A stretch of 64,000 nt of DNA. Source: Eledone cirrhosa (taxonomy: Eukaryota). The position numbers were made by a program, and so were the translations under genes. The stretch is from positions 267,778,001 through 267,842,000 of the forward strand of contig OZ024742.1 in assembly GCA_964016885.1 (NCBI GenBank), written 5' to 3'. Shown here one piece after another: positions 366 through 64,000 of the stretch. Under the pieces are notes generated by a model, which was given only the letters and a program-made list of their open reading frames with translations, had not been told where the DNA came from and made no database searches. How positions within the stretch are numbered: position 1 is the stretch's first letter; each line of letters begins with the position of its first letter.

Positions 366-544
366 GTAACAATTTTTCTTCTGGAAAATCTGATCTTGCG
401 GCCAGGCTGGGACTTTTGGGTGGAATATCGGCAGTAACAATGACGATAAGCCGTCTGGGCTTTCGTGAAATAAATACGTTTGTTTATATTTTGTTTTTGT
501 GTATGCAAAAATATCTGTACACGAATATATAATTATATATATAT

Positions 545-800
545 ATATTAAAATAACAGATTAAAGTTTAAGCAAAGAATCGCTGCTTTCACTCTTAACG
601 AGATCTTCTGAAACTAAAAAAAATCAATCTGTGAACGCAGAAGTAAATGTTTCGAAAAACGTTGCAATCGAAGGAAAATAGGAAGACGATACTTTGGTTC
701 GTGAACACAGACATCTATTATAAGCTTGCGACGTTATAGCTATGTATATAATGCAGACAGCCAGACATACAGAGACATATTATAAGGGCGCGACGTTATA
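545..800 (-). mobile_element. PLE pseudo-LTR (family A) segment inside a Helitron-derived element
   Basis: Near-identical to 54045-54200 and 56800-56965. It continues into the 'gcgcccttataatatctgtctgtat' segment shared with 13800-13860, 29140-29190 and 46700-46745. Confidence 0.75.
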
Positions 801-13622: not shown

Positions 13623-14073
13623 TCTATATATATAAAACTGATGTTGTCTGTGTGTGTGTGTGTCCTCATTTTTGCAAAGTCTATACAAATCCACATTTCT
13701 ACTCCGATTGACTTCAACCTTGCGGTTTAAAGATATTAAGTGCAGCTTTTATTTTTCAATTTTCTGTTGTTGAAGGGGGTGTTAGGCGCCCGTTATCCAT
13801 CTCCGTCGCGCTCTTATAATACCTGTCTGTATACCTGGTTGTCTGCATTACGACATTCTGTCGAACATTGATGACGTATTATGTTCGCTATTATCCGTTC
13901 ATTACCAGGGAACGTCTTCACGAACCGAAGTATCGTCTTCCTGTTTTCCTTCGGTTGCAACGTTTTTCGAAATATTTACTTCTGCGTTCACAGATTGATG
14001 TTTTTAGTTTCAGAAGATCCCGTTAAGGGTGAAAGCAACGATTATTTGCTTAAAGTGTAATCTGTTATTTTAA
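13623..14073 (+). mobile_element. Helitron 5' portion carrying a PLE family-A pLTR with a HHR-like motif
   Basis: Starts TCTATATATATAAAACTG and is homologous to 46480-46942(-). It ends in the family-A pLTR (HHR-like motif at 14006-14056). Confidence 0.75.
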
Positions 14074-14187
14074 TCTATATATGTATATATATAAAACTGA
14101 GGAAGGATGTATGTATGTATGTATGTATGTATGTATGTATGTATGTATGTATGTATGTATGTATGTATGTATGTATGAATGTATGTA

Positions 14188-19312: not shown

Positions 19313-19350
19313 CCTTTTGAAAAGCAGAAGAACTGCGAAACCGGTAAAGG
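19313..19350 (+). ncRNA. Minimal type I hammerhead, U3-A8 core variant
   Basis: CCTT TTGAAAA GCAG AAGAA CTGC GAA ACCGGT A AAGG: all three stems are perfect and C3-G8 is replaced by U3-A8. Confidence 0.75.
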
Positions 19351-19744: not shown

Positions 19745-21236
19745 TTTTACCTTAGATTTATTTAAATGTCCTTAATTTTCGAGATAATATCTCTTCTTCG
19801 GACGAAGTAAAGCGGTTAAACCAGTGTTCTAAATAGCTTGCCAAGTCATGCTGACAGGAAATGGTATAGAATTATCTGTTCTATCGCTAATGTCAAAGAG
19901 TTAAGGTTAGGTGGATAAAGAGTAGTCTCCCTTTAAATGTTTTTTTGTTGTTGTACATGCCTGTTTAAGTGTGTGGGAGAATGCATGAAGGTGTATGTGA
20001 GTGTGTGTGTGTGAGTGTGAGAAGATATGTCTATACGTAAATGTGGGGGATAGATGTTATCTCGTGTTAGAACTGGTCTTTGTGTGTGTATGTGTGTGTG
20101 TGAGAGAGAATACGTGGAGGTGTAAGCGTGTTGTGCGTGTGGGGGGGGGGGTGTAAACATGGGGCTAGAAGCTCTATAGAGTTATAAATTGTGTGTTGAG
20201 TTCTAGTCTATTGTTGATTGGTGGTTGTGTTTTGTCTATAATCAGTGCTTCCTTAATTCTAAGATTGCAAAGGTTTCTTTCCTTAGTTTCTATCCTAACT
20301 GTTATGGTTTTGACGGTGTTTTTGCATTTAACTAGGTGTTTCTTAAATGAGGAAGAGTTAGTATTGCGGTGTTCTTTTATTCTTATGTGGCGTGGTCTGG
20401 TGGTGCTACCTACGTAGAACTTGCTACATTTGTCACACTCTAGTCTGTATACGACGTAAGCCTGGTGGCATAGGTCTGTGTCGTTGATGGGGCAGTCGGC
20501 TAGCTTGCAGCAGTTGTCATGTCTGGTGGAGTGTCTTTTGGTTAGCTGTCCGCGTAGAGAAGGACCTGAGTGGGCCAGTTGGATATCTAGTCCCTCTCGT
20601 CTGATAGCTCTGCGGATGGCTGTTGTTGTTTCGTCACTGAAGTGTGGGAGCTTCAGGAATCAAGTGTTAGTGCCGCGGGTGTGGTGTCCTCTGTTCTTTC
20701 TGGCACGGTTTGTGGTGGATGTCGTGTATCTGTTCAGTTTGAGTACTTCCAGGAAATGTGTGGTGTGTGTGTCTCGGTCTCTAGCGTCGGTGCATTTGTT
20801 CCGGATACGTCCTAGTTCGTTCCTTTTGTATCCGAACTTAGCGCCGGCTGGGAGGGCCGATCTGAAATGTACGAACAGGTCCCTGCTGGCGGCTTTTTTA
20901 TAGAAGCAGGTGTGGATGTTGCCTTCCTCTGTTACCCTGAGTTGGAAGTCCAGTAGGGATAGGGATCCGCGGTCATCGGCGTGTCCCATGCTGAACTTTA
21001 TACTGGCGTCCATGCTGGAGAATGTTGTGTATATATTATCTGCCCCCTCACGGGATGATGTAAGGATGAGTATGTTATCTACATATCGGGTGAAGAAGGT
21101 ATGGGAATGGCAGGTGCTGAGGGCTCGGCATTCTAGCTGGTTCATATAGGTGATGGCCAGCAGGCCCGATAGGCTGGATCCCATGGGTAATCCTGTTGTC
21201 CGTCTGTATGTGTCGTGGTGGTGGTGGAAGGTGAAG
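19745..21236 (-). pseudogene. 5'-truncated PLE (RT plus GIY-YIG) with 3' UTR and degenerate HHR
   Basis: The ORF 20660..21325 contains GLPMGSSLSGLLA, TRYVDNIL and LSLLDF. Downstream is VVYRLECDKCSKFYVGSTTRP. CCGAAGA-GAGAT/ATCTC-GAAA lies at ~19765-19805. Both ends are near (TA)n. Confidence 0.85.
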
Positions 21237-21261
21237 TATATATATATATATATAAGAATTA

Positions 21262-21299
<38 letters not shown>

Positions 21300-21301
<2 letters not shown>

Positions 21302-22125
21302 GAAAAAAATGAAACGAAATTTCATTTCTCACACTTAGTACGGCTGTTACTTAAATATAAGTATGTATACGTACATACATATATGTATACAGTCGCACAG
21401 TATTATGTATATATATATATACATACATGCACACATATATATATATGTACGTATGGATTCAACGAACATTTATGATAATGCTCGGTGTGTTTTTAAACAA
21501 ACATCCCGAATTAAGCCGTACAGTGTCTAGCAACCATCGTTGTTCATTTGTTCAACACTGCCAAATGAAAGATGTACTAGTTTCAAGCTTATTAGCTATC
21601 GTCAGCAACGTATACCTACTTGCCAGATGATGGAACGTCTGAAAGTATATACTTGCCTTATGCATATTAACGGCTGAGCCATACGTACATATATATATAT
21701 GTGCATGTATGTATATATATATATAGATACTACTGTGCGTCTGTATACATATATGTATGTACGTATACATACTTATATTTAAGTAACAGCCGTACTAAAA
21801 GTGAGAAATTAAATTTCTTTTCATTTTTTCCGTTTATCGTTTTCGATGCCCCCGCCGATTAACTCACTCAGTATTCAAATTAGGCTGCTCAGCCGTTAAT
21901 ATGCATAAGGAAAGTATATACTTTCAGACGTTCAATCATCTGGCAGGAAGGTATACGTTGCTGACAATAGCTAATAAGCTTGAAACTAGTACAGCGTTCC
22001 TTTGTCAGTGTTGAACAAATGAGCAACGATGGTTGCTAGATACTGTAAGGCTTAATTCGGGATGTTTGTTTATAATAACACCGAGCATTATAATAAATAT
22101 TCGGTTAATCCATACGTACATATAT
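21300..22125. mobile_element. Retrozyme-like non-coding element (family B) in inverted configuration
   Basis: 21300-21680 is followed by an inverted copy of more than one monomer (ccatacgtacatatat at 21679 and 22110, ~430 bp period). HHRs lie at 21570-21610(-) and 21955-21997(+, G8A). It is flanked by (TA)n. Confidence 0.8.
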
Positions 22126-29286: not shown

Positions 29287-29397
29287 TGTAACTTTTTTCT
29301 AAATATTTACTTCTGCTTTCACAGATTGAATTTTTAGTTTCAGAAGATCCCGTCAAGGGTGAAAGCAGCGATTCTTCGCTTAAACTTTAATCTGTTA

Positions 29398-29484
<87 letters not shown>

Positions 29485-29778: not shown

Positions 29779-29917
29779 GTTTTTAGATATTTTTGCATAA
29801 ACAATAACAAAATATAAACAAACGTTTTTATATCACAAGGCCCGATAAGGATAAATATATATCAAATATATAAGAACCCTAGAGCAAATCCCGAGCAACG
29901 CTGGGCCATTCTGCTAG
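28916..29917 (+). mobile_element. Non-autonomous Helitron carrying PLE family-A pLTR pieces and a SINE fragment
   Basis: 5' TCTATATATCTAAAAC and 3' cccgagcaacgctggg...CTAG|T. Internal family-A pLTR at 29300-29403 and 29840-29889, and a SINE tail at 29484-29588(-). Confidence 0.8.
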
Positions 29918-34950: not shown

Positions 34951-35242
34951 TCATTACCTCCCTTACACTTGACATAATCTCATGTATGAATTAACGACAA
35001 CCATCTTAGTATTAATGACTGAAAGCTAAGCCGCACTAGCAGATGTAGCGTTCCTATGACCTAAGCCAGAGTAGGCTTTAAAATATTAGGTAGTATGCAA
35101 CTGTGCTGCGAAATTATGTATAATAAAACAAATTGACTCTCTTTTTCCTATAATTATTACAGAGAAACACGTGATTCCCTATATATATATATATATATAT
35201 ACAATATTAAATAAATGGAAACTATATTTATAAAACCATATT

Positions 35243-35308
35243 TATTTCATTATATATATTTCAGGGATATCATATTAACAATATGCTATGCCTTCCTCAG
35301 ACAAAATA
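35243..35308 (-). ncRNA. Type I hammerhead ribozyme (canonical core)
   Basis: Minus strand reads TATTTTGT CTGAGGA AGG..CATATT GTT AATATG..CCT GAA ATATATAT A ATGAAATA. Confidence 0.85.
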
Positions 35309-36703
35309 CAATATAAACAGTTTTATAGATAAATAGATTCGACATACCGTAACAACATCGACTTGCATTTGAAGAGGTTGATTTGGCAGTGAAAAAATTG
35401 TACACAGAGAGAAAGAAAGAGAGAAAAAAGAAAGAAAGACAGAAAACGAAGAAAAGGAAGAAAAAGAAGAAATGCATGGAACAAAATAGAGAGATGGAAA
35501 GATAGATAAAGAGAAGAACTTCATGTAAAGAAACAGAAAGAGATATATATATAGAGAGAGAGAGGAAATAGAGATAGATACATATATATATAGAAAATTA
35601 GGTAGTGGGAGGTCTGTTGAGTAAATGTATCAATGATACATTTATTTATTTATTTATTTATTTAGCTCTAGTATTAATGTAAGGGAGATATATATATAGA
35701 GAAAAAAATATATAGAGAGAAAAAAATATAGCGAGAGAAAAAATTTAAAAATAACCACATATATGCGAGGCGTAAAAACCCTATGTTTTAATGTAGAGGT
35801 ATTAGTATTTATAAAACATCCACTATATTGTAAATATCAGTATTCCTGAATGAGACAAGTATCCATAGTGTGTGAAAATTAATGATCTTATGTTTAGTTT
35901 TTTTAAAAAATTCATATGTTTATGTGATAGCTACAAACATCCATGTGAATCTACATGATCAACTCCGCAAACCCTAAGTTCACGGAAAACATTCTCAATG
36001 TGGTATAAAAATTTGAGTATACATATATGTGTATTATTATTCCTGTCTTTACTCTACAAGATTATCTATCAAGCAGAAATAGAGAGCAGATTTCAATATA
36101 CTAATAAAAATATAAAAATATATATCAGAAACAAAACTAAAAAATAACAATAATAATAATAAGTAATAATAAAATAGAAAATAGAAAACTAAAAAAATAT
36201 TACGAAAGAATATTACATATTAAAAATATTACATATTAAAAAATTTACATATTAAACATATTAAAAATATTAAAAAATAAAAATATTAAAAATAAAAATA
36301 TTAGAAAATACTACAATAATAAAAAATAAAAAATAAAAATAAACCACAAAGATCAACCCTTCAAAATTAATTGACAATATATTGCCAAGTTCATTATAAG
36401 CATCAGAGTCGAAAAACAGACAAAGCCAAAAATTATCTATCAAATCACATCTAGCAAAGATCATTTCAAAAAGTTTAGGATGCCCAATTTGGTCTACATG
36501 TGTTCTTATATTTAATATAGAAGTTTATCTAGTGTAACGTTTATTCGAAATATTTGGAGCATCAGCTTTTAGGGTAGCTTAATTTTTCATGGGGAATGTT
36601 TAAATAAAAATAAAATAAAAATAAAAAATGAAAAAGAATAAAAAGAAGGAATTAAAGATTTATCGGCTAGTTTCCCATATAAATATAAATCAAACTAAAT
36701 ATA

Positions 36704-37924
36704 CTACATTTTAAATTTAAATTTATATTTAAACGTTGAGTTTAATCTATGTTTGCAACAACTGAATAAATTTGTCCGTAGATTAAGGGAATTTTTAGAT
36801 TTTAGTATAAAGAATATCTCCTCCGCGCAGAGGTCACATGTCTCAGAGGATGAATTAAAAGGAATCCCTCTTGAGACTATATTCCAAGCCGTCGAATATC
36901 TAACGTTATCTAGCTTAAGTTGCCAGAGTACGCCTGATAGTGCCGTTGAAGATTTTTTGCTTGGATCTGTGAAAGAATTCTTGTGGTTATTATAGCGAAG
37001 TTTAAATTCCGTCGATGTGGAACCGACGTAGTTAAAAGAATTAGAGTCAGTATTAACATTACAATTGTATACTATATTTTTAACTAAGCAGTTGTTATTT
37101 AACGGACATTTAGATCTATCTCTACAGTTACATTTGTTAACTTGTATATTATTTATGCTATTATCACTAGGTTTTAAGTTCCTATTATTTATTCTATTAA
37201 TATTTTGTGCTAAATTTTTGGTGGATGAGTATGTTAATTTTATTGTATGTCTATTGAAAATTGAGTGATACCTATGTGTTCTAGGGAAGCGATTATCAAG
37301 AGCTTTGAAAAATAGTTTAGCGATGTGGGTTTTAATGTTTAGTGAGAAAGGGGGGGCAAACCAAATTATGTTCCTAGTTCTATTTCTTTTTTGGCCTTTG
37401 GAATTATTGTAATGCTTTCTATTATAGTTGTTAAGATTGTTGCCGTAATTAAAAAAGTTGTTACTTTGTTTAGTTTGTCTTTCATTATCTATGTACACAA
37501 TCTTATCAGCATATCCTGCTCTAGCTAATGCTTCATTATAGTATTGGGCTTTTTCGTCGAAAATCTTTCTATTCGACGAGATCCTAGAGATACGTTTTTG
37601 AACAGAGTTTACTATAGTGTTTTTGACAGATCTGGGGTGGTTAGAGTTAAAGTTGACATAGTTTAAGTTTTCATTCAACTTGTGAAAAGGATAGTGAAGA
37701 CATGTGTTGAGATTTAATGTTATATCTAGGAAATTGACTATTCTATGTTTGTTCTCAATTTCTATTTTAAGATTAAAGTAATTAAAAAATTGTGTAATTT
37801 GTTTACATTTTCTATTTAGTTCAGGGTTATTATTATCAATAAGTAAAAGCATGTCGTCTCTATATAAACCTCCGGTAGTACCGGGTATTTTCCTATGTAG
37901 CGAATTGATTAAAAATAAGCCCAC
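36704..37924 (-). CDS. PLE RT C-terminal half, Cys linker and GIY-YIG endonuclease (uninterrupted 406 aa, 5'-truncated)
   Basis: [42 protein letters not shown]...[16 protein letters not shown] and CDLCAEE. Confidence 0.9.
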
Positions 37925-37947
37925 AAGGTCAGTTACCTGAGCTGAGT

Positions 37948-38065
<118 letters not shown>

Positions 38066-38097
38066 CGCGCGCGTATATATATATATATGAATATATA

Positions 38098-38141
<44 letters not shown>

Positions 38142-43257: not shown

Positions 43258-43261
<4 letters not shown>

Positions 43262-44746
43262 ATAATAATAAAATTGAAGACTAAAATCCAAAGAGGGCTC
43301 GATAAGGAAAATATATATCAAATATATAAGAACCGTAGAGCAAATATTTATTAAAATAACAGATTAAAGTTTAAGCAAAGAATCGCTGCTTTCACCCTTA
43401 ACGGGATCTTCTGAAACTAACAAAGTCAATCTGTAATACGTCATTAATAGAAGCGGTGAAAAACAATTACGCGCAAAGACAAAACCACGTTTATGGTATA
43501 AAAGAGGTCGTAGACTAATGTTCTCTAAGGTGGTGCATAGAGACGTTCTCTGGCAATGAACGAAAAAACGAAGATAATAAGTCATATGTGGAGGGTGGAG
43601 AACAATAGCACGCAAAGACAAAACCACGTAAATGGTATAGCAGAAATCGTAGACTAAAATTCTAACTAGGAAACCAAATGAATCTCCGCTACAGAGTTAA
43701 GAACAAAGTAAATAAATACAATACAGTAGTAATAGAAACAAATAAATACATACACGCAAACAGATACGTACATACACAAGCATACGCAAAACCTTACCAT
43801 GGTTATACAAAACCACGCACATATAAATATGTGTGTGTATGTATGCGTGTATACAAATAAATAAATAATTATATAAACGTATATAAGTAAATAAATACGT
43901 ATATAACAAGCGCACAGGCATACCTACATATAAATACACGAAAGTTCGGAGACGTAAGTCAACTAAAACAAGAAGTACACATATACACACACCCACCATA
44001 CGTACGAACCTGCTCACTCACGCGGACACAAAACTCCCGTATACACATAGCCAAACCCTAAAAACCAGAATATGTAAAAATTATACGCTATAACAGTCAA
44101 ATATACGTACGAGAAAGTATACATACCTTCACAGAACATACGGGTAATATATACTTACCTATGCAAATAAGTAAAGGAATAAACAAACATATACTTAGCT
44201 CCCACATCAAGACGTAAAATATCCACGTATAGATCGTGCTATCCGTTAGGGTATAACGTGGGGCTGTAATACAGGAAAGTTTTGTGCAATTTATGTTTAC
44301 AAGCCGAAATTGCCTCAGATTTTTTGTTTGAGATGTGGTTTGTAGCGTAGAGTATTTCCAGGGCCTCAGCGGCGCAGAGGTCACATGGTCTTTTATTTCC
44401 GTTATACGATCTAGCCCTAGCTAGGATCTCCCAGTGTAACTTATATTGGGTGTGGTTGTCTTTTAGACTCCAGATATAAGCTGAAAGTGACGTCATGTTC
44501 CTTCTTAGAGGGTAACGAAAAGAATGGGTATGCATGTAAAGACGCTGCTTGAAACTATTGGCCGTTAACCCTATGTAGGCCCTACGGGAGGTGGGTGTTA
44601 CAACCTTCGTCTTCCTGTCTTCCTCCGGTTGCAACGTTTTTTGAAATATCCAGTTCTGCGTTTACAGATTGACTTTGTTAGTTTCAGAAGATCCCGTTAA
44701 GGATGAAAGCAGCGATTCTTTGCTTAAACTTTAATCTGTTATTTTA

Positions 44747-44752
<6 letters not shown>
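43258..44752 (-). mobile_element. Family-A PLE, heavily 5'-truncated, with an inverted 5' pLTR
   Basis: 44239-44606 is nearly identical to the GIY-YIG end of 54869..55966. The 3' UTR/pLTR spans 43258-44238 and the inverted pLTR piece 44607-44752. (TA)n lies on both sides. Confidence 0.9.
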
Positions 44753-44777
<25 letters not shown>

Positions 44778-45798: not shown

Positions 45799-46942
45799 CT
45801 AGCAGTGTATCCCGGCGTTGCGCGGGTAATAGCACCCCCATTGAGAAACGTTTATTTGTGAGTGCCTGTTAAAAACTCATTAAAATATACTGAGCGGACA
45901 CTTGTTTTATTTGGAGAAAATTAAGGAGTTGAAAGTACAGTTTAGCTGTCTACGTGCATTGTTCATAGAAATATTGTTGAACCCCTTCTTTTCATGCTTC
46001 TCTCTTTTGGCCTATTGGAGTAAATGTGAAAGAGAAATTAACAGGTGATGTTGGCAGAAGGTTCCAGTGTCATATCAGTAAGGCGTAGGCTTAAAAGTTC
46101 TTTCGCACTCTTTCCACTAAGTTACTCTTTCTCTCTATCCCCCTCGGTGCAGTCCCTTGCGAATTTCTCGCGTAGGCCTTGTGTAGATTTGCACCCGATC
46201 CATCTGTCCGATGCACATGTCCGCTTTGTACGGCTTTTGGAGGAAGGAATGACCAGCAGTACGTTGTTCGGTATTATTACGAAAAGGTGTAGCAGAGAAT
46301 CCCGCATGAAGTAACAGCTCGAGAGGAAACTGCTTACCTCGAAGATTCATTCGCCATCGTTCTTAACGCTCCGTTCAGTTGGTATTTGTTGGTCTACAGT
46401 TAGTTGAATGGCGCACAAAAGCTTAATGTTTATTGGCAAGAAGTGGCCACTGGGCTGGCTTCCCTCACTTATAAAATATATTAAAATAACAGATTAAAGT
46501 TTAAACAAATAATCGCTGCTTTCACCCTTAACGGGATCTTCTGAAACTAAAAGATCAATCTGTGATTGCAGAAGTAAATATTTCGAAAAACGTTACAACC
46601 AAAGGAAAACAGGAAGACGATACTTTGGTTCGTAAAGACGTTCCTTGGCAATGAACGGAAAATAGCGAACATAATACCTCATCAATCTTTGTCACAATGT
46701 CGAAATCCAGACAGCCAGGCATACAGACAGATATTATAAGGGCGCGATAGAGATCGAAAACCAGCGTCTAACACCCCTTTAACAGCAGAAAATTGAAAAA
46801 TAAAAGCTGCATTTAATATCTTTAGACCGCAAAGAATATATAAAAATGCAAGTTTGAACTCAATCGGAGTAGAAATGTGGATTTGTATATACTTTGCAAA
46901 AGTGAGGTTACACACACAGACAACTACAGTTTTATATATATG
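45799..46942 (-). mobile_element. Non-autonomous Helitron with a captured family-A pLTR
   Basis: Minus-strand 3' end acccgcgcaacgccggg...CTAG|T at 45799. The 5' region is homologous to 13623-14073. The pLTR with HHR-like motif is at 46480-46680. Confidence 0.8.
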
Positions 46943-46949
46943 TATATAT

Positions 46950-48315
46950 AAATAAAGATGAAAATGCGAAGTTGAAGGTGTTAGAGTTCTTTATTATTTG
47001 AGCCGTTATACATATTTCAATGACGATAAACATCGAGATCTCTTCAGGCACCAAACATTGATTAAAAGGTAATATTTCTGAGGCAATTTTATTTGGAAGG
47101 GGGCGGACTAAAGAAAAAGTGTGTTTTTGCTTCGGTTGTCCGCCCCCTTCTGGTTTCAAGCCACCCTGACAGCTCTGCATATGTCACAGGGGGGTATGGG
47201 TGGCTGACCCCTTCATCCAGAATACTTTCAACCATGTATGTTCTCTCTATCTACCAATCTCCCACCACCTCGGCCAAAAACACGATATGGTCAGTGGGAC
47301 CTTCAAGCCAGCCAAAATTTAACTGCTGGCTTTGGCAACCAGTAAGATTTCGGTGTATTTGTACCCGCCATCCGTTTATGGCGGGATAATCACCCCGAAG
47401 CGAAAAATTTCCTTTCTGCTATGGTTAATATAACTTATCATAGAAAATATTTAAAGTTTCTCAACCCGAGAACATTTCTAAATTTAAAATGTTAAGAGTT
47501 ATATGTTAGGAGTCCAGACAACTAGACAACAGTCAATTTGCTAAGGATGAGAAAATGTCTGGCCTCTTGTCGTGGATGACATGTAAAATTTAAAATATCT
47601 AATTTAACGAGCGTTAAAATTAAAAATTAAACGAATGTAAAACATTAAACAAATGTAAAAATTAAACAAATCTACAGTTGGTATTCCGGTGAATCCCGTG
47701 GAGACAAAAGATACATTGATAATTTAAGGAAAAATGTACAAGTAAGGAAGAACGGGGAAAAGGGAGATTATAATTGGGGGGGGGGGGTATGATTATAGCG
47801 TAAACAGGCCTATAGAGAGAATGAAGGAAACATAGAAGGAAAAAATATAGAAAAATTAGAAAGTAAAATCTGTGATAAATGTCTGAGTGGGGGCGAGTTA
47901 TAGAAAGTCAGTTGTATTCACAGTGCTCCAGCTATTTTGATCCGTGCAGTTTCAACTGCAGCTGAAGTAAATGTTAAATGGAAATATCCAAGAGTAAGAG
48001 CACACAGTCCAGAGGACGAGTTTAGTATAAATGTTTAAAACAGTGATATAAACAGGTACTCAAGTTTCGTTGGGTTCTGGGCCCACAATTCATTCAGCCT
48101 GTCATAAGAAAAATAAAAACAAAGATGCCCGCCTAGAGTTAATTCTGCTTTCCTTATATACATAAGATTTTACGCAGGGACAGCCAATTAAAAAAAAGTT
48201 TAGAAAAAGGGCTTTTCTTTAAATTATAGGGTAAGATCAAGAGAAGTAACTCTTGATAGACAGTCAATTTTGAATGATAATAGAAGCACAATGATTTATT
48301 CTATTTCACTCGAAA
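46950..48315 (-). pseudogene. Highly decayed PLE with 3' UTR hairpins and a HHR remnant
   Basis: RT-like remnants (NHCASIIIQ..., MNCGPRT) at 48060-48310. The minus strand has CTGAAGA GATCTCGATGTTTATCGTCATT GAA ATATGTAT A at ~47005-47047. Confidence 0.5.
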
Positions 48316-48324
48316 ATTATATAT

Positions 48325-49410
48325 ATATTTATTAAAATAAGAGATTAAAGTTTAAGCAAAGAATCGCTGCTTTCACCCTTAACGGGATCTTCTGAAACTA
48401 AAAAAAATCAATCTGTGAATGCAGAAGTAAATATTTCGAAAAACGTTGCAACCGAAAGAAAACAGGAATACCATACATTGGTTCGTGAAGACGTTTCCTG
48501 GCAATGAACGGAAAAAAGCGGAGATAATACTTCGTTATGTGGAGCGTTGAGAACAATTACACGCAAAGACAAAACCACGTTTATGGTATAAATGGAGTCA
48601 TTAGACTAATATTCTATTTAGGAAACCGAATGATTCTCGGCTTCAGAGTTAAGAATAATGTAAGGTGTGTATATGTGTATATTGTGTTTTGGGATACGTA
48701 CTTTTGGTGAACATATCTGTATTTATCTGTAGGTATATGTGCGTGCGTTATATACGTATTTATGTGTGTATATTTATATACGTTTATATAATTATAAGTA
48801 TACACAGATATATATATATATTATTTTAATGTGTATTTGGTGTATATGTTTGTATATGTGCGGGTACGTGTGTCACGCGGGTTTATGTATGTGTGCGCAT
48901 GTTTATGTGTACGTACATGTATATGCATGTATCGCGGGTGTTTTCGCGTATGCATGTGTATGTACGTATATAGATGCGTGTATGTATATATTTAATTATT
49001 ATTACTTTTATGATTTTAATAACCTCTGTCATTTTCGTTCTACAAATTTATTTACATTATTCTTAACTCTGAATCCGAGAATCATTCGGTTTCCTAAATA
49101 GAATATTAGTCTACGCCTCCATTTATAGCATAAATGTGGTTTTGTCTTTGCGTGTAATTGTTCTCACTGCACCACCTAAGGACGTGTTATCTTCGCTTTG
49201 TTCCGTTCATTGCCAGGGAACGTCTTCACTAACCAAAGTATCGTCTTCCTGTTTTCCTTTGGTTGCAACGTTTTCCAAATATTTACTTCTGCGTTCACAG
49301 TTTTAGTTTCAGAAGATCCCGCTCTAGGGGTTCTTATATATTTGATATATATTTATCCTTATCGAGCCCTGTTTGGATTTTAGTCTTCAGATTTATTATT
49401 ATTACTATAT
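48325..49410. mobile_element. Non-coding family-A PLE derivative: two inverted pLTRs around a TG-rich spacer
   Basis: 48327-48665 is the reverse complement of ~49050-49320. Further pLTR fragments run to 49535. Confidence 0.85.
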
Positions 49411-49703
49411 ATATATAGTAATAATAATAAATGTGAAGACTAAATTCCGAAGATTTAATCTGTTATTTTAATATATATATATAAGGGTGAAAGCAGCGAT
49501 TCTTTGCTTAAACTTTAATCTGTTATTTTAATAAATATATATCTATCTATATATATATATATATATATATATGTAGATAAATCTACCAGAATATACCGTA
49601 GTGTCCAATCCGTATGAAGAACTCAATGTAATCCAAATATCATGAAAAGAGAAGATTTATTCAAAAATGTTTTCGATGAAAATTACAGGAAAACAGAGTC
49701 AAG

Positions 49704-53895: not shown

Positions 53896-53959
<64 letters not shown>

Positions 53960-54317
53960 ATAATAATAAAATTGAAGACTAAAATCCAAAGAGGGCTCGA
54001 TAAGGAAAATATATATCGAATATATAAGAACCGTAGAGCAAGTATTTATTAAAATAACAGATTAAAGTTTAAGCAAAGAATCGCTGGTTTCACCCTTAAC
54101 GGGATCTTCTGAAACTAACAAAGTCAATCTGTAAACGCAGAACTGGATATTTCAAAAAACGTTGCAACCGGAGGAAGACAGGAAGACGATACTTTGGTTC
54201 GTGGTAACGTTCGCTGGCTAAGAACGGGAAAAAACGAATAATACGTCATTAATAGGAGCGGTGAAAAACAATTACGCGCAAAGACAAAACCACGTTTATG
54301 GTATAAAAGAGGTCGTA

Positions 54318-55966
54318 TCACATCTGATCTCAACATCCTGGACCGGACCGAACCTCTGGACCCTATCTCTCCCCACTTTATCCTGAAGGATCACAAATCC
54401 AATTTTCCGAACAACCCGGCTTATTAACCCTACGAAGTCCGATTTAGGTAGACTTAGTAAAACGATTCTTGATAGAATTATACCTGAAATTAGAAGTTTG
54501 GCCCCTCTCGCACTGTGGAACAATTCTTTCGCGGTCATTGATTGGTTCAACGGCATATGTAACAAGGAACATTGCCGTTTTATCCAATTTGACATCAACA
54601 ATTACTACTCCTCCATCACTTTACCACTTCTCCTTAGAGCTATCAATTTCGCTAAAACACTCACAGTGGTTAAGGATTTTGAAGTTGATGTCATCCTTAA
54701 TGCCCGAAAGTCGGTGATTAATTTCGACGACTTTATTTGGATTAAAAAATCCAATAGTACCCCATTCGACGTGAGTATGGGCGCCAGTGACTCTGCAGAG
54801 GTCACTGATCTTATTGGCCTTTTCCTTCTTTTCTCTATCAAGGACGAATTCCCCAACGCGGGCGGTGGTTGTACCGTGACGATGGTCTTTTGACCATGTC
54901 TAAGTGCGGACCTCGTGCTTGCGACAGGTTCAGAAAAGAACTCACAGCCTTCTTTAAAGGCTTCAACCTCTCTATACAGGTTGAGGCCAATCTCTCGGTC
55001 GTTAATTACCTCGACGTTACCCTCAATTTATTGAATGGGTTGTATTACCCGTATAGAAAGCCGGATGATACGCTTAATTACATAAGTAAGCATTCCAACC
55101 ATCCTGCCAGCATAACCAAGAACCTGGTAAGAAACGTTTCATTGAGGCTTTCCCGTCTTTCCACCAACGAGCGCATTTTCAACGACCATTCCACTTATTA
55201 CAATGAAGCTCTTGCTCGAAGTGGATTTGTCGATAAGGTAGCATATACAGAGTACGAAAATAGACCTAGAAGAAATAGATCCCGTTGCATTTGTTGGTTT
55301 AACCCACCATATAATATGGAGGTGGCCACACCATTAGCTAAGATCTTACTTTCCCTTATTACGAAGCATTTTCCCCCTACACATAAATATAGTAAAATTT
55401 TTAATAGAAATACTATTAAAATTTCTTACTCTACGACTCCTAACCTTGCACATAACATCACAGCTTCAAATTTAGCTAAACTACCTTGCCGTCGGAACAC
55501 GTGCAACCCTGTAGTTAGTACTAACTGTAATTGTAGGAATCGGGCTGATTGCCCCCTATCCGGGAAATGCCTCTCTAGTAACCTTGTCTACAAATGTAAG
55601 GTTGTAACACCCACGTCCCGTAGGGCCTACATAGGGTTAACCGCCAATAGTTTCAAGCAGCGTCTTTACATGCATACCCTTTCTTTTCGTTACCCTCTAA
55701 GAAGGAATATGACGTCACTTTCAGCTTATATCTGGAGTCTAAAAAACAACCACACCCAATATAAGTTACACTGGGAGATCCTAGCTAGGGCTAGATCGTA
55801 TAACGGAAATAAAAGACCATGTGACCTCTGCGCCGCTGAGGCCCTGGAAATACTCTACGCTACAGACCACATCTTAAACAAAAAATCTGAGGCAATTTCG
55901 GCTTGTAAACATAAATTGCACAAAACTTTCCTGTATTACAGCCCCACGTTATACCCTAACGGATAG
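54318..55966 (+). pseudogene. PLE RT plus GIY-YIG ORF with two frameshifts (~54417, ~54869)
   Basis: LKDHK, LINPTKS, FIQFDINNYY, FDVSMGASDSAE, YRDDGL, WFNPPY, CNCRNRADCPLSGKC, LVY...YIG and CDLCAAE. Confidence 0.92.
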
Positions 55967-56893
55967 CACGATCTATACGTGGATATTTTACGTCTTGATG
56001 TGGGAGCTAAGTATATGTTTTGTTTATTCCTTTACTATTTGCATAGGTAAGTATATATTACCCGTATGTTTTGTGAAGGTACGTATACCTTCTCGTACGT
56101 ATATTTGACTGTTATAGCGTATAATTTTTACATATCCTGGTATTTAGGGTTTGGCTATGTGTATACGGGAGTTTTGCGTCCGCGTGAGTGTGCAGGTTCG
56201 TACGTATGGTGGGTGTGTGTATATGTGTACTTCTTGTTCTAGTTGACTTACGTCTCCGAACATTCGTGTATTTATATGTAGGTATGCGTGTGCGCTTGTT
56301 ACATACGTATTTATTTACTTATATACGTTTATATAATTATTTATTTATTTGTACACAAGCATACACACACACACATATTTATATGTGCGTGGTTTTGTAT
56401 ACCCATGGTAAGGTTTTGCGTATGCTTGTGTATGTACGTATCTGTTTGCGTGTATGTATTTATTTGTTTCTATTACTTCTGTATTGTATTTATTTACTTT
56501 GTTCTTAACACTGTAGCGGAGATTCATTTGGTCTCCTAGTTAGAATTTTAGTCTACGATTTCTGCTATATCATTTACGTGGTTTTGTCTTTGCGTGCTAT
56601 TGTTCTCCACGCTCCACATATGACTTATTATCTTCGTTTTTTTGTTCATTGACAGAGAACGTCTCTATGCACCACCTAAGAGAACATTAGTCTACGACCT
56701 CTTTTATACCATAAACGTGGTTTTGTCTTTGCGCGTAATTGTTTTTCACCGCTCCTATTAATGACGTATTATTCGTTTTTTCCCGTTCTTAGCCAGCGAA
56801 CGTTACCACGAACCAAAGTATCGTCTTCCTGTCTTCCTCCGGTTGCAACGTTTTTTGAAATATCCAGTTCTGCGTTTACAGATTGACTTTGTT

Positions 56894-56944
56894 AGTTTCA
56901 GAAGATCTCGTTAAGGGTGAAAGCAGCGATTCTTTGCTTAAACT
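56894..56944 (+). ncRNA. Variant hammerhead-like motif of the family-A pLTR (CAGAAGA core)
   Basis: AGTTT CAGAAGA T CTC GTTAA GGG T GAA AGCA GCGATTCTT TGCT T AAACT. About 9-11 copies are in the window. Confidence 0.65.
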
Positions 56945-56960
56945 TTAATCTGTTATTTTA

Positions 56961-57069
<109 letters not shown>

Positions 57070-57537
57070 TTATGGAATACTGTTGGCTTCTTACTACAAT
57101 AATTTCTATACTTTTCATTTATATATATATATGAGGGAGCTTATAGATTGGACAACACACGCTGTCTTTTCGTGGGGTAAGCCTTTAATTAATTTATGTA
57201 TTCTGAAATATCAAAATACAACAAATTTTTGCTCACTAGACTCGGGAATATCATGACAGAAGTTTGTGGATGTTACACAAATATTTTCGTATATTTTACC
57301 AGAGCAATCCTTATTTATATTTTACATTTTACATTTACTTACATCTCAATATTCAAATTTTGGCTAAAATTCAAATTTTGCAAAGAGAAGAAAACGGAAA
57401 AATGAACTAGATACATCTCACAATAACGTCTACACTCTCTACCCACCACCACATCTATATTTACACATGTCATTACCCTATCTAGACTAAAGTCACCGAC
57501 CTGTTGTCAAATTCTCTACTCTGTGTTGTATGTGTAC

Positions 57538-58599: not shown

Positions 58600-61500
58600 A
58601 ATATTTGTAACACAAACAACAATAACACCAACAACAACATAAACAACAACACCATCAAAAACAACAGCAACAACAAAAATAACAGCGGTAAGGTCGAGAA
58701 CGACAATGACAATGACGATATCAACAGCTAAAACAACAATAATAGTAGGAACAGTATCAACAAAAACAGCAATAATAACAACAGCCACAATAACAGTAAC
58801 AACAGCAACATTATCAACGAAAACAACAACAACAACACCAACAACTTTACCAACGAAAACATCATCAATGACATCGATACCTGTAACAGCGACCACAGCA
58901 CCACCAGTAAGACCAGTAGCGGCAGCAATAGTGGTGCTGCTGAAAAAGGGACCACTTCTTTTGCAGGGGTCGCCCGAAATATCGAGACCGTCTTAGTCAC
59001 AGGGGAGGAAATGGCAGTCGCAAGGGCCATGGTGACAAGAATCGCCAATAGAGTCTCCCTGAAACCTCCACCCGGTTTTTTCAAGGACCAGCAGCTACAG
59101 ACGGTGACTTACGGAACCGTAAGCAAAATCTCACATCGGGTGGAGAGAGCCACAGAGGCTCAAATCCAAAAGGCCTTGGGGTGCAAAACCCACATCACCC
59201 GAGGCACAGTAGACGTACTTTTCGACACCCCCAGGAAGCGAAGTCTCACTCTTTGGAAACCCTAAAGAGTGAGAAGATAGTCTTGGTGCCCTCCTACTGC
59301 GGGCAGAAAATTGTGAGGGCAAAAGTGACCAAGGTCCCACGCAACGTGCCCATACCTTGGCTGGCCGCGTCTGTCCGTGTTGGAATGGAGGACAGGACGA
59401 CCATGCTGCAATTAGAGAAAAATAGGGAGAGAGAACTGTTCAGGTATAGGCATGCAAATGCTTATACAAACTGACCAGGAATGTATCGACGCTACCCCCG
59501 ATATCATAGACATCGAGGAAGGACTCCAACTCCCTATAAGCGTAGAAGGAAGACGTCCAAAATGTTATCTCTGTGGGTCGAAGGGTCACCTTTTGCCCGC
59601 AGAAGACAGCGTAGAAGAAGGCCCGTCTCCTTACAATACCTGGTCCGCTGCTACCAAGAGCAGGGCAGTCAACAAACGCAGTAGTCCATTCCACGGTGAG
59701 CAGGAGGGCAACGTCCCAGGCACCCGTACCAAGGCTATGGACAACTAAAGCAGCAGCATCAGTGGCGGCAACACCAATAGCTACATTTGAAGTAGCTACA
59801 CCAGCAACAAAATTGCCGAAGAGGACTCCACTACCACCACCAACAGCCGTCGAGCACATACCCCTCCCACACCCCACGGAATCCGACATGGAGTTTGAGG
59901 CGGGAGTGAAGTGGCAAACGGTCTGCCGCAAAAAACAAGAAAGAAAAAAACCCTTAGATTCACCCTCCAAAAGCGAAGGCACACAAAGAGGGGTAAAGGC
60001 AGCAAGGAAACTTGCAGCAAACCCACCACCATCACCACCACAAGCACCACCGCCAACAACAACCACACCGCCAGCAGCATCACCAAAAACATCAACAACG
60101 CAAACAAAATAAAACACACGCACCAAACAGCAACAAGAATTAAAACAGCAACAAGTAGAAAACAGCAACAAAATCACCCCTCCCTCCAAAAGGTACACAG
60201 CCATAAACATGGCAAAATAAAAGAACACATACAATATATAAAGCAGCACACAGACATCACAGAAAAAAACTACTACACCCCACCAACATCAAGAACTCTC
60301 CCAACAAACAAGCATCATTGAAATCTCAATAGAATGTACAAACTTTTAAAACAAAAATTCCCCAACGCAGTTGGAGACTTCAGATGGTCGGTTACTAAGA
60401 GGATATACAATGACATCCTCTTGGAAACACCCATGACCAGCCAAAGGGACGGTTCTACTGTCCCTTCACCACATGATCAAGGTAAGTGACCCTTTTTCAC
60501 TTACCCTGTTTTTGATCCAACATGGACGTAGTCAGAATAGACAGTATAAATGCACGTGGCCTGGGGCCATCTTGGAAGCAGGGTCACCTGCTCAACGACC
60601 TCAGGTCACTAAACATAGATGTGGGGGCCAGCAGCGAGACCAGAATCTCCGAAACACAAGCCTTCGCACCGATCTTCGGCGGCTACGATGTATACGCATC
60701 TCCCAGCCCACCAGGATCGGGGGGAGGGTTTGCCGTCCTTTTTCGGAGAGGCTTGGATCTCGCCATACGGGCTCTTCCTGGACCTAGAAGTTAAGTCGGT
60801 GGTGTAGGACGTGACCGGCAGCGAAGGCAATGCTTTCAGGCTAGTAGCCGTCTATGCCCCAACAGGGGCAGGAGGGCCAGATGTCTTCAGACGTCTAGAG
60901 ACTTTTCTTGGAACGTCCCGCATTTATTGTTAGTGGGCGACTGGAACGGTCTTGGATGCACGCTGGAACGACTTGGATGCACGTTGGAATTGTGTGGGGC
61001 TAGTGGATAGGGGAGGAGGGTGCAAGAGCCTCACCTACCTGATTCAGACGTTTTGAAGTGTCTGACAGGTATCGACTGGATCACCCGAATGTGCCAATGT
61101 GGACATGGACAAACTTCATCGGGTCATCCAGATCGTATCTCGATAGGGTATCTGCAGAAAACTAGATAAGGCTAGTATAAGTTGTCCACAATTTAAAATA
61201 GTCGACTACACAGACCACAAATTTGTGATCTGTGAGATCGACATAGACAGACTTCATAGACAAGGGCCCGGTTACTGAAAACTGAACGCGTCTTTTCCGG
61301 CGCGTAAAGCCTACAGAGACCGGATTAGTGATCAGTAAAGCGGGCGTTGACGGGAGCGGTCGTTAACAACAGGTGGTGGTTCGCCCTGAAAAGGGCAATT
61401 AAAGTAGAGTCGATTAGCTTTAGCAAAGGACTAGTAATAGAGGAAAATAGAGTATAGGGAGAGCTAGTCAGAAAGCTAGAAGAGGCGTTTAGGAGAGACA

Positions 61501-64000
61501 TCGCAACCAACGTGCTTACGGCGAGATTGGCACTCGACCAATTCTTCAATGCAAAACACGAAGGCTGCGTTGTCACAGCTACAGCGCGTGCTATAAAACA
61601 CGAGGGGACAAAAGCCGTCCAATGGGCCAGGGTGACAGAGGCGCTACGTGGCAATAAAACCACAATTCGGTCTTTGTCTGACAAAAACGAGTGCGTGTTG
61701 CTCGAACTCGAGCAGATGTGTGAAGCTTTTCAGCAGCACTTTGCTGAACTGTTCTGGATCAGTGCCGGCCCGGATCGGGCCATGGATTTCAGTGCATACC
61801 TCGACGGACTGCTAGGCTCTCGACGACAGCAGCACAGTGTTGCGAAAAGCAAATAACAGCCGGTGAAATACGGGAGCGATGGCTAACTGCACGAGGGGTA
61901 AATCGCCAGGTTTGGATGGTCTGCCCCTACGAGCTTTATGTATTTATGCCAGACTTGTTCGGTAACCTTTTGGCAGATGTCTACTGCAACTGGCAGCAGA
62001 ACGGGAGTATTCCCAGTTTTGTGAGAGGGGAGCGGTGGCGCTGCTAAGAAAAGACCCAAACAAGGGGGATGTTATCGATAACTTCAGGCCCATAACCCTG
62101 CTAAACGCAGAGTTCAAGATTTTGGCAAAGGTGTTAGCAACGAGGTTGGCGCTTGTCGTCAAGGGTCTGGTGGGAGAGGCGCAGACATGCGCCATTCCGG
62201 ACAGATCCATACACGACAACCTCCACCTCATGCGATACATCATAGAGAGGGTGGTTAAGGAACCTGGCACGGGTGGGGCCCTGATCAAATTGGATCAATC
62301 CAAAGCATTCGATAGGGTCGACCATTGGTAGCTGGCGGCGGCCCTCGAGGCCCCCGGTTTCGAACCCGTTTTCAGGGGATGGATCGCTGCGATGTACAGC
62401 GACATCTGCTCAATTGTGACGGTGAACGGTCACCTGTCGCAGCCGTTCAGCATCATGCACTCGGTCCGCCAGGGTTGTCCCCTTTCGCGCCTCTTGTACG
62501 TATTGGCTCTCGAGCCGTTACTGTACAAACAGGGATCGATGAGGGGAGTCCCACGCGAAATAGGATGCGGGAAATCTGAATCGGCATACGCCGACGACGT
62601 CACCGTGGCGTTGTCGAGCACCGCCACGTCCAGATGCTCGGCACCGCTCTCAAGGAATACGAAGCGGTGACAGGAGCAAAGATAAGCCAGGAAAAGTCGG
62701 TGGGCTAGCAGCTCGGCACCTGGAGAGACAAGTCCATGCCGTCCGACAGCGTCGTGGAGCGTTGGACGGACGGACCGGTTAAATTGCTCGGGATCTGGTT
62801 CGGACCGGACCTCCAGATGGAGAAAAACTGGAGCGAGGTGACGAGCAAGGTGGCCTCCCTTACCCAGAAATGGGCCGAGAGTAAGCTGTCCCTGAAAGGC
62901 CGGGCGGAGGTGGCGAATGCGTACATCGCATCCGTCATCTGCTACCGCCTAACCGTCGTCCTTTGCCCCGGCCCAACTCTCACCAAAATGGAGCACCTCC
63001 TCTTCCGCTTTTTGTGGAAGGGGTGCGCTCCCATGGTCAGACGATCCATCTGCTGTCAACACCCGTTGCGTGGAGGACTAGGCATGCCATGGCTGATGAT
63101 GCGCAAATATGCGTTGAGGATGCGACATCTCTGGTGCTTCCTTGACGGTGACCAGGTGTGGTCGCCGTTCGCCAGGCACGTTTTCCCACAGCTTGTCTCC
63201 TCAATGGAGATGCAGTCCTGGGTCAGGAAAAAACCGAGGGATAGCGCTTGGAAACTGGAATGTCTCCAGGCGCTCACTGCCCTCTGCTAGCGGGGCACCA
63301 GTATCGGTGGAACATCCAACTCGGCGTTCTATAGAGGACAAGTGGAGGGGAAGAGCGACGACGTTCTCGGAGATATCCTGGGCGTCGAAGAAGATCAGCT
63401 GTTTGCTCTCCTTCGGAGAACTTTCAGCCTGGGGCCTATGGAGAACTTCCAAAAATCCCTGGCCTGGCAGTGCTACCGGTGAGCGTTGCCGGTTCTAGAT
63501 AAGCTCTACAGGCACGGAAGTGCCGTCACCCGAGCCTGTCCGTGATGCGGGCAGAGCGACGAAACCGTCGTGCACGCACTCGTTCAGTGTCCGAACATTG
63601 CTGGTATGTGGAGCTATGTCGAACCGTTGCTGTCGCGTGTGAGACTGAACCGGTTATCGACTGAGTCCATTGTGCAGATTGTCTCGTCGTCTTCCTTCGA
63701 GGAGGAAGGGCAGGCGGTTTTCATCTGCCTGGTGGCCATGGCGAAATAGATTGTTTGATGGACAATGTTAAAAGGGTTAAAGACAGACACTTTCCTCTTC
63801 GGCGAATCCCGAATTAACTTTTTCAAGTTTCACTTGAAGAGGAAAATCAAGGTGGCCAGGCAAGTGCTGCCTTCTAGCAAGTTTGTTGAAAGGTGGGTGA
63901 ATGTAGCGAGAATGGTCCGAGTGAACGGGACCGCTCTGAATATACGCCTGTAGTTTGAAATAGAAAAATTGAGAGAGGGCTCGTGCCCTGGTGGTCAGGG
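58600..64000 (+). mobile_element. Near full-length decayed Tx1/L1-clade LINE
   Basis: ORF1 remnant with CYLCGSKGH knuckle (~59560). ORF2 APE (INARGL, LVAVYAP, GDWN, DH), RT (FRPITLLN, LDQSKAFDRVDH, SVRQGCPLS, AYADDV) and 3' CP*CGQSDETVVHALVQC. Many frameshifts. Confidence 0.92.

What the first reader, a model, noticed from the sequence alone, without database searches (positions are those of the whole stretch)
56894..56944. High-copy PLE terminus with a non-canonical hammerhead core (CAGAAGA, U-U at 10.1-11.1, CUU site)
Seen: AGTTT CAGAAGA T[CCC]GTTAA[GGG]T GAA AGCA..TGCT T AAACT recurs at ~565(-), 14006, 29336, 43368(-), 44680, 46498(-), 48348(-), 54066(-) and 56894, so U4A is fixed in the family rather than decay. 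Stem II shows a compensatory change: CCC/GGG in most copies, CTC/GAG at 565-615, and the wobble CTC/GGG at 56894. Inference: a natural HHR variant that standard CUGANGA searches would miss, carried by a recently active family.
Basis: partly seen in the sequence, partly recalled or inferred. Interest (0 to 1): 0.75.

Follow-up and report, generated by a model that had tools for sequence, protein, structure and literature searches.

The report
Penelope hammerhead with fixed U4A core
This is the hammerhead-ribozyme-shaped RNA end of a jumping gene with over 19,000 copies in this animal genome, and nearly all copies carry an A where working hammerheads have a U, which likely leaves it cutting itself only weakly or with help from the element's own protein (untested).

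Summary
The motif is real: 9 copies in the window, all CAGAAGA. It is the 3' type I hammerhead of a ~3.26-kb Hydra-type Penelope-like retrotransposon. Genome-wide, position 4 reads A in 19,250 exact matches, U in 76, C/G in 119, so U4A is fixed. U-U at 10.1/11.1 is ordinary (14 of 25 published Hydra hammerheads). Only U4A is new; published mutagenesis predicts low activity. Old and young subfamilies differ at 20 of 188 upstream UTR sites but 0 of 67 motif sites, so the motif is under constraint. Copies run through the cut site, fitting reverse transcription from uncut RNA, as shown in vitro for another Penelope element. An unrelated family here has fixed U4C (3,966 copies). Best reading: an attenuated, probably protein-assisted hammerhead that insertion does not need; rival: dead ribozyme kept as a protein handle. 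No cleavage data. The scan noted this family before elsewhere in this genome. New variant of a known kind.

The parts
56879..56952 (+). Whole type I hammerhead fold: stem I (distal 56879-56886/56945-56952, 7-nt bulge 56887-56893, proximal 56894-56898/56940-56944), core, stems II and III
   Evidence: Complementarity read; 96.7% of cells paired over 9 copies, 20-53% when slid
56899..56905 (+). Core 5' strand C3 A4 G5 A6 A7 G8 A9; A4 (56900) replaces the conserved U4
56906..56918 (+). U10.1-U11.1 mismatch and 3-bp stem II (CTC/GGG wobble variant here; family norm CCC/GGG) with GUUAA loop
56919..56939 (+). G12 A13 A14, 4-bp non-palindromic stem III with 9-nt loop, CUU triplet; predicted cut between 56939 and 56940
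   Evidence: numbering by established hammerhead convention; cut site inferred
54318..56968 (+). 5'-truncated copy of a Hydra-type Penelope-like element ending in (TA)n about 28 nt after the predicted cut
54387..55966 (+). Remnant RT + C-terminal GIY-YIG-type ORF, frameshifted near 54870 (pieces 54387-54893 and 54809-55966)
   Evidence: 235 longer relatives at up to 46% identity; motifs
55967..56968 (+). 3' UTR / pseudo-LTR region (about 1 kb); CAGAAGA is its only C-N-G-A-N-G-A heptamer
53958..54317 (-). Inverted 5'-truncated partner copy with its own A4 hammerhead (core 54111) and the ~85-nt 'tail' (53958-54042), which is the start of the 5' UTR in tandem copies
56969..57070 (.). (TA)n target microsatellite
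43260..44768 (.). Second insertion of the family: long copy with tail on the minus strand (core 43413) and short inverted partner on the plus strand (core 44685)
46476..49570 (.). Older-subfamily copies (cores 46543-, 48394-) and rearranged fragments at about 49097-49570
525..703 (-). Older-subfamily 3' fragment (core 610) with the chance double change CTC/GAG
13867..14093 (+). Older-subfamily 3' fragment (core 14011)
29287..29410 (+). Older-subfamily 3' fragment (core 29341)

Best explanation
It is the type I hammerhead motif at the 3' end of a very abundant Hydra-type Penelope-like retrotransposon, with U4 replaced by A in 99% of matching copies, and it is likely an attenuated ribozyme that would cut weakly or only when the element's protein helps it fold, while insertion likely proceeds from uncut RNA. 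Shown: position, fold-compatible sequence, fixation of A4, ~3.26-kb head-to-tail units with an A4 motif at both ends, and two preferred 3' ends downstream of the cut site. Inferred, by analogy with the anole Poseidon element: the RT-endonuclease binds a tandem transcript, nicks (TA)n DNA and starts reverse transcription internally about 28 or about 113 nt past the hammerhead site, copying the motif intact. Inferred from hammerhead structure (recalled) and published mutagenesis: A4 removes the uridine-turn contact and lowers the rate. Inferred from comparison: residual catalysis is still selected, because the other catalytic positions stay intact in this and related families.
For: Homology: related PLE families in this genome end in canonical hammerheads at the same place, e.g. 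CTGAAGA-T-CC-GCTAA-GG-T-GAAAC, 905 matches, 97 of the first 100 with U4. A relaxed descriptor finds 108 motifs in 21 clusters in 864 kb and 0 in reversed sequence. Constraint: old versus young subfamily differ at 20 of 188 upstream UTR sites, 2 of 7 bulge sites and 0 of 67 other motif sites (Fisher p = 0.0026). Position 4 is the tolerated one: a second family has fixed C4 (3,966 matches, 99 of first 100), and an AU test rejects one origin with A4 (p = 0.0085); the nearest sampled relatives keep U4, one with the known U3-A8 swap. A natural U4C viroid variant is slow in vitro yet sufficient in vivo (PMC3088659). Uncut template: 139 of 155 fetched copies run 20 nt or more past the cut, 3 end within 2 nt of it; 0 of 30 copies with the 5' UTR start within 3 nt of it. 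In PMC11167929 hammerhead mutants did not affect insertion, the ribozyme cut only with the protein, and two internal RT starts made the tail.
Against: No cleavage or RNA data: no RNA holder was listed. In a pairwise mutant scan of a type III hammerhead all CUGA-turn mutants except the C3-G8 swap had low activity and no second change rescued them (PMC9901934), which fits 'dead' as well as 'weak'. The constraint is not core-specific: loop III (0 of 9) and the 3' flank (0 of 15) are equally unchanged, and the core alone (0 of 13) is not significant. The hammerhead fold lies 2.8 kcal/mol above the predicted minimum and its inner stem I has pair probability about 0.05-0.07; folding z-scores were unremarkable (-2.0 to +0.7). 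Canonical-core families also extend past their cut sites, so read-through does not single out A4. There is no within-family covariation.
Confidence: 0.5

Rival explanations
1. The ribozyme is catalytically dead. U4A was fixed because cleavage is dispensable, and the terminal ~90 nt are conserved only as a structure or sequence that the RT-endonuclease recognises next to its initiation sites.
For: CUGA-turn mutants have low activity; catalytic mutants do not affect insertion in vitro; conservation covers loops and 3' flank, not only the core; both ends of 6 of 6 regular two-motif units carry A4, so no canonical partner supplies cleavage; Naiads were reported to thrive without canonical hammerheads.
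Against: C3-G8, G5, A6, A9, G12, A13, A14, A15.1-U16.1 and H17 are all intact, and in the related families located through their ORFs the recurrent family-level core changes were at position 4 or the compensated 3-8 pair. In the anole element the protein-binding region was mapped to the first 172 nt of the ORF, which there overlaps the hammerhead, so it neither proves nor excludes a handle.
Confidence: 0.3
2. A fully active natural variant: A4 is compensated by its context (A7, loop II contact with the stem I bulge), so the motif cleaves about as well as canonical PLE hammerheads.
For: Extended bulged stem I and a stable, non-palindromic stem III suit a monomeric ribozyme; tertiary contacts are proposed to offset natural core variants (PMC3088659); strong sequence constraint.
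Against: No double mutant rescued the turn in the pairwise scan; the bulge that would make the tertiary contact is the one part that changes between subfamilies (2 of 7 sites, length varies); all 25 published Hydra-clade hammerheads keep U4.
Confidence: 0.12
3. The real catalytic strand lies elsewhere (a permuted or pseudoknotted hammerhead), and CAGAAGA is a bystander.
For: Earlier unchecked scan notes describe permuted hammerheads in other families of this genome.
Against: No CTGANGA, TTGANAA or other CNGANGA lies on the sense strand of the 1,005-nt 3' UTR or in 330 nt covering the tail, 5' UTR and ORF start; CAGAAGA sits in exact register between stems I and II.
Confidence: 0.03
4. A chance resemblance in an ordinary repeat end, with no hammerhead ancestry.
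For: No Rfam hammerhead hit; the hammerhead fold is not the predicted minimum; all copies are one family, so repetition adds no independent support.
Against: Rfam also missed the canonical-core hammerheads in the same window; related families carry canonical hammerheads at the same place with the same U-U and a near-identical loop II; the descriptor gives 0 hits on reversed sequence.
Confidence: 0.03

Closest known systems
Hydra-clade Penelope-like elements and their 3' hammerheads (Craig et al. 2021, PMC8557442; section 11, passages, and supplement parts 1-2 of 59 read)
   Same: C-terminal endonuclease, RW(R) and DKT motifs, CxCX5C linker, (TA)n targets, partial tandems, inverted partners and tail; type I hammerhead near the 3' end with U-U at 10.1/11.1 (14 of 25 families) and U17 (10 of 25).
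   Different: All 25 listed Hydra hammerheads have CUGA and G16.2; this one has CAGA and C16.2, a 9-nt loop III, an ~85-nt tail and a ~3.26-kb unit (Hydra generally under 3 kb).
PLE minimal type I hammerheads (Cervera and De la Pena 2014, PMC4209133; parts 1-2 of 4 read)
   Same: pLTR location, dispersed truncated copies, low activity expected; U3-A8 core variant already reported and seen here in a related family.
   Different: Those have a minimal palindromic stem III and act as dimers; this has a 4-bp non-palindromic stem III and a position-4 change not mentioned in the text read.
Natural hammerhead core variants (Perreault et al. 2011, PMC3088659; passages and part 3 of 8 read)
   Same: U4C (viroid), U10.1-U11.1 and other core changes occur in nature with reduced activity.
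   Different: The term U4A has 0 occurrences in its main text; figures and supplements were not seen.
Poseidon element PAc of the green anole (Frangieh et al. 2024, PMC11167929; parts 1-2 of 4 read)
   Same: Two preferred ends defining a tail, AT-rich targets, copies made from uncut RNA.
   Different: Poseidon clade; canonical C3-G8 core shown to cut with protein help; hammerhead overlaps the start codon, whereas here it lies about 200 nt upstream of the ATG in tandem copies.

Membership tests
Type I hammerhead ribozyme (canonical) | Three-way junction, stems II and III closed, stem I open | tested here: met
   Complementarity in all 9 window copies, 96.7% of cells paired; predicted 2.8 kcal/mol above the minimum
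Type I hammerhead ribozyme (canonical) | C3-G8 pair, G5, A6, A9, G12, A13, A14 | tested here: met
Type I hammerhead ribozyme (canonical) | U4 of the CUGA uridine turn | tested here: not met
   A in 19,250, U in 76, C/G in 119 exact matches
Type I hammerhead ribozyme (canonical) | A15.1-U16.1 pair and NUH cleavage triplet | tested here: met
   A56922-U56938; CUU at 56937-56939
Type I hammerhead ribozyme (canonical) | Covariation supporting the stems | tested here: not met
   Within the family none beyond chance; across families the same layout recurs with different stem sequences, but these were not aligned formally
Type I hammerhead ribozyme (canonical) | Match to an Rfam hammerhead model | tested here: inconclusive
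   No hit, but canonical-core PLE hammerheads in the window gave none either
Type I hammerhead ribozyme (canonical) | Site-specific self-cleavage | not testable with these tools
   No RNA holder listed; needs an in vitro assay
Hydra-clade PLE | Single ORF, RT followed by C-terminal GIY-YIG-type endonuclease | tested here: met
   YRDD then VY..YIG, CDLC, CKH in the window ORF; 641-aa open frame in L206; no Pfam hit
Hydra-clade PLE | RWK and DKT N-terminal motifs | tested here: met
   RLRWRA at 35 (R for K) and DKT at 115
Hydra-clade PLE | CxCX5C linker | tested here: met
   CNCRNRADC in the window ORF, CNCRNRVDC in L206
Hydra-clade PLE | CCHH motif absent from the endonuclease | tested here: inconclusive
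   Not seen by eye in the translation; no alignment to CCHH-bearing endonucleases made
Hydra-clade PLE | Insertion into (TA)n; partial tandems, inverted partners, tail | tested here: met
Hydra-clade PLE | Canonical hammerhead near the 3' end; length generally under 3 kb | tested here: not met
   U4A core; unit about 3.26 kb. Hence filed as Hydra-type, not as a proven member
Hydra-clade PLE | Groups with published Hydra proteins in an RT tree | not tested
   Trees held only sequences from this genome and unnamed database relatives

The most novel reading that the evidence does not exclude
U4A is an evolved off-switch: A4 both weakens the uridine turn and completes a helix (UUUCA with UGAAA) that hides G12-A15.1, so the RNA stays uncut as a template until the element's own protein refolds it into an active hammerhead with an adenine turn. 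The C3:G12 decoy pair has predicted probability 0.39 in three A4 copies against 0.01 in one natural U4 copy. This would be an active hammerhead without a pyrimidine at position 4, and a damping step linked to a very large PLE expansion.
Probability: 0.15. Interest if true: 0.75.

Novelty: new variant of a known kind. Interest (0 to 1): 0.45.

Why it matters
Why Penelope-like elements carry hammerheads is an open question (Craig et al. 2021 call it unclear). This genome holds a natural series in one group of elements: U4, U3-A8, C4 (3,966 matches) and A4 (19,250 matches). Measuring their cleavage with and without protein would show whether catalysis is needed, merely tolerated or actively damped. 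If A4 cuts, the hammerhead consensus and search descriptors must be widened; if it does not, a family with tens of thousands of copies spread in vivo without ribozyme activity, extending the in vitro result of Frangieh et al. 2024.

Tried and rejected
Rfam scans of the window and of the motif: no hammerhead family. Pfam: no hit for the ORF pieces or three relatives beyond sub-threshold noise. Viral contigs: one weak 39-residue match, not used. Sequencing runs: no RNA holder listed; contigs of two other organism labels held only 6 and 1 pieces at low depth, so they were not counted as independent occurrence. Stem II covariation: rejected. An ancestral U4 subfamily: not found; of 10 U4 matches inspected out of 76, 7 start at truncation or inversion junctions right at the motif and 3 are point changes in ordinary copies of both subfamilies. 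Ends at the cut site: no pile-up, but this is not diagnostic. A second core strand: none. Intact ORF: 0 of 20. Lower private mutation rate in the core (3 of 403 against 180 of 7,519 in the UTR) was not used, as the core is A-rich and lacks CpG. The fold comparison with the L165 family failed (invalid structure string). The A4 family's hammerhead had no diverged sister in 464 kb. Papers not held and so not read: Lunse et al. 2017 on PLE hammerhead variants, which may already list U4A, and two structure/biochemistry papers sought by recalled ids. 'U4A not in print' rests only on searches 31 (hammerhead + U4A: 0 papers), 43, 69, 74, 85 and the passages read; figures and most supplements were not seen.

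Full report
Observation. The motif is at 56894-56944 as described. A search for CAGAAGA followed by GAAA gives 11 matches in the window against 0.76 expected; 9 belong to one repeat family, and two half-copies lie near 49300 and 49480. In the 3.0-Gb genome the exact 28-mer with A at position 4 occurs 19,250 times, with T 76 times and with C or G 119 times, so 99.0% read A. Of 10 T matches inspected, 7 begin at truncation or inversion junctions right at the motif and 3 are point changes in ordinary copies; there is no sign of a U4 subfamily.

Covariation does not hold. CCC/GAG or CTC/GAG: 682 matches, the first 100 listed all CCC/GAG, a C-A mismatch. CTC/GGG or CTC/GAG: 405 matches, 2 of the first 100 CTC/GAG. 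About 8 doubles are thus seen where about 14 are expected from independent changes (397 x 674 / 19,250; my arithmetic). In the window alignment the one double change is reached by 117 of 500 shuffles. Copies decay without regard to pairing after insertion, as expected.

Anatomy. Stem I is longer than reported: 5 pairs next to the core, a 7-nt bulge, then 8 pairs (56879-56952). C3-G8, G5, A6, A9, G12-A14, A15.1-U16.1 and H17 are canonical. Stem III has 4 pairs and a 9-nt non-palindromic loop, so the design is monomeric. The predicted cut is 56939/56940. The hammerhead fold is 2.8 kcal/mol above the predicted minimum for the common copy and 5.5 for this wobble copy. One competing helix pairs UUUCA with UGAAA; its C3:G12 pair has probability 0.39 with A4 and 0.01 in one natural U4 copy, but the inner stem I is about as unlikely in both (0.05, 0.06).

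Context. The motif lies about 930 nt after the stop of an RT-endonuclease ORF (54387-55966, frameshifted near 54870) and about 28 nt before (TA)n. An inverted partner copy precedes it. Near-full-length copies show a ~3.26-kb head-to-tail unit, an A4 motif at both ends in 6 of 6 regular two-motif units, and RLRWRA, DKT, YRDD and CxCX5C motifs; 0 of 20 had a complete ORF, the longest frame being 641 aa. These are the Hydra-clade marks of Craig et al. 2021; the lead came from an earlier scan note and I checked it. A tree with the published proteins was not made. Copies end either 20-35 nt past the cut site (76 of 155) or further on, in the tail (63 of 155); 3 end within 2 nt of the site. The tail continues into the 5' UTR in tandem copies, and 0 of 30 such copies start within 3 nt of the site.

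What is and is not unusual. All 25 Hydra-clade hammerheads in Craig et al.'s File S2 have CUGA; 14 have U-U at 10.1/11.1 and 10 have U17; all have G16.2 (my count). U10.1-U11.1 is also noted by Perreault et al. 2011. A relaxed descriptor run on 864 kb (partly chosen for these families, so not a census) gave 108 motifs in 21 clusters and 0 on reversed sequence. Three canonical-core clusters have U-U, one has CUU, and one family reads CTGAAGA-T-CC-GCTAA-GG-T-GAAAC (905 matches), close to the A4 layout although its protein is only about 26-31% identical. So only A4 is new. Position 4 has also changed elsewhere: a family with fixed C4 has 3,966 matches, and two copies of another family read CCGATGA. 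In a 36-row tree the A4 proteins group (100/98) with a family whose core is mostly TTGANAA, the U3-A8 swap (4 of 6 long copies), and a fragment lying beside a CTGACGA motif, probably the same insertion. An AU test on 15 rows rejects A4 and C4 as one clade (p = 0.0085; simpler model, group named after seeing the first tree).

Constraint. In 42 copies not picked by the motif's own sequence (one misaligned row of 43 dropped; 14 old, 17 young, 11 intermediate left out of the comparison), old and young subfamilies differ at 20 of 188 upstream UTR sites, 2 of 7 bulge sites, and 0 of 67 paired, core and loop sites (p = 0.0026). DNA contigs of run X1 show the same pattern: variants above 10% lie upstream or in the bulge, those inside the motif stay under 7% apart from this copy's own wobble site. 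The 3' flank is also unchanged (0 of 15), so the constraint may be on the terminus as a whole.

Mechanism. Frangieh et al. 2024 showed for an anole Poseidon element that reverse transcription starts at two internal sites, which creates the tail, that hammerhead mutants insert normally, and that the hammerhead cuts only with the protein present. The two ends and the read-through seen here fit that model (inference). For U4A itself I found no measurement; the pairwise scan in PMC9901934 reports low activity for all CUGA-turn changes except the C3-G8 swap, and U4C is slow in vitro but viable in a viroid. That U4 makes the turn through its imino proton is recalled; Perreault et al. note its contact with the A6-N7 phosphate. 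I commit to an attenuated, probably protein-assisted ribozyme that insertion does not need (0.5), over a dead motif kept as a handle (0.3) and a fully active variant (0.12). The sequence cannot separate the first two.

Novelty. Hammerheads at PLE ends, low activity and several core variants are known. A family-wide U4A was not found in searches or in the passages read, but Lunse et al. 2017, the most likely place for it, was not available, and figures and most supplements were unseen. Two earlier unchecked notes of this scan describe the same family on other pieces of this genome. Verdict: new variant of a known kind, interest 0.45.

Noticed in passing
window 35230-38098 (-): A second Hydra-type PLE (ORF 36704-38098, about 40% identical protein) ending in a canonical CTGAGGA minimal hammerhead at about 35300 with a palindromic ATATATAT stem III.
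   Followed up: partly
window 18508 (-), 18974 (+), 19317 (+), 40186 (+), 45017 (-): Further hammerheads of other families: an inverted pair of CTGATGA motifs, a U3-A8 core (TTGAAAA) at 19317, and two more canonical cores. Rfam detects none of them.
   Followed up: partly
L071:7599 (-), L155-L164; genome-wide: A PLE family with fixed U4C (CCGAAGA), 3,966 exact matches, and an A-G mismatch at 10.1/11.1.
   Followed up: partly
L136:8620-8800 and about 50 other fetched places: The family nearest to the A4 family has a U3-A8 core, and 45 of 59 fetched pieces start within a 20-nt stretch inside the 3' strand of stem II, mostly as short inverted pairs: an unexplained, sharply fixed 5' truncation point.
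   Followed up: no
L031-L038: Most apparent U4 revertants of the A4 family sit at 5' truncation or fold-back junctions; TTC-A-GAA is a near-palindrome, so strand switching there can write T at position 4 (explanation inferred).
   Followed up: partly
window 20174-21328 (-): Decayed canonical PLE with Pfam RVT_1 and GIY-YIG matches, unrelated to the Hydra-type families by tblastn.
   Followed up: no
window 56542-56803: The 3' UTR holds an imperfect direct repeat of about 125 nt (77% identity) just upstream of the hammerhead.
   Followed up: no
window 62709-63290 (+) and 58732-60112: ORF fragments that by eye resemble a non-LTR retrotransposon (post-RT region and a low-complexity ORF1-like piece); no Pfam hit for the 62709 frame.
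   Followed up: no
window about 29839-29887 (-); L041, L048, L058, L159: A different short repeat carries a 49-nt stretch matching this family's tail, suggesting a non-autonomous passenger that borrowed the RT start region (inferred).
   Followed up: no
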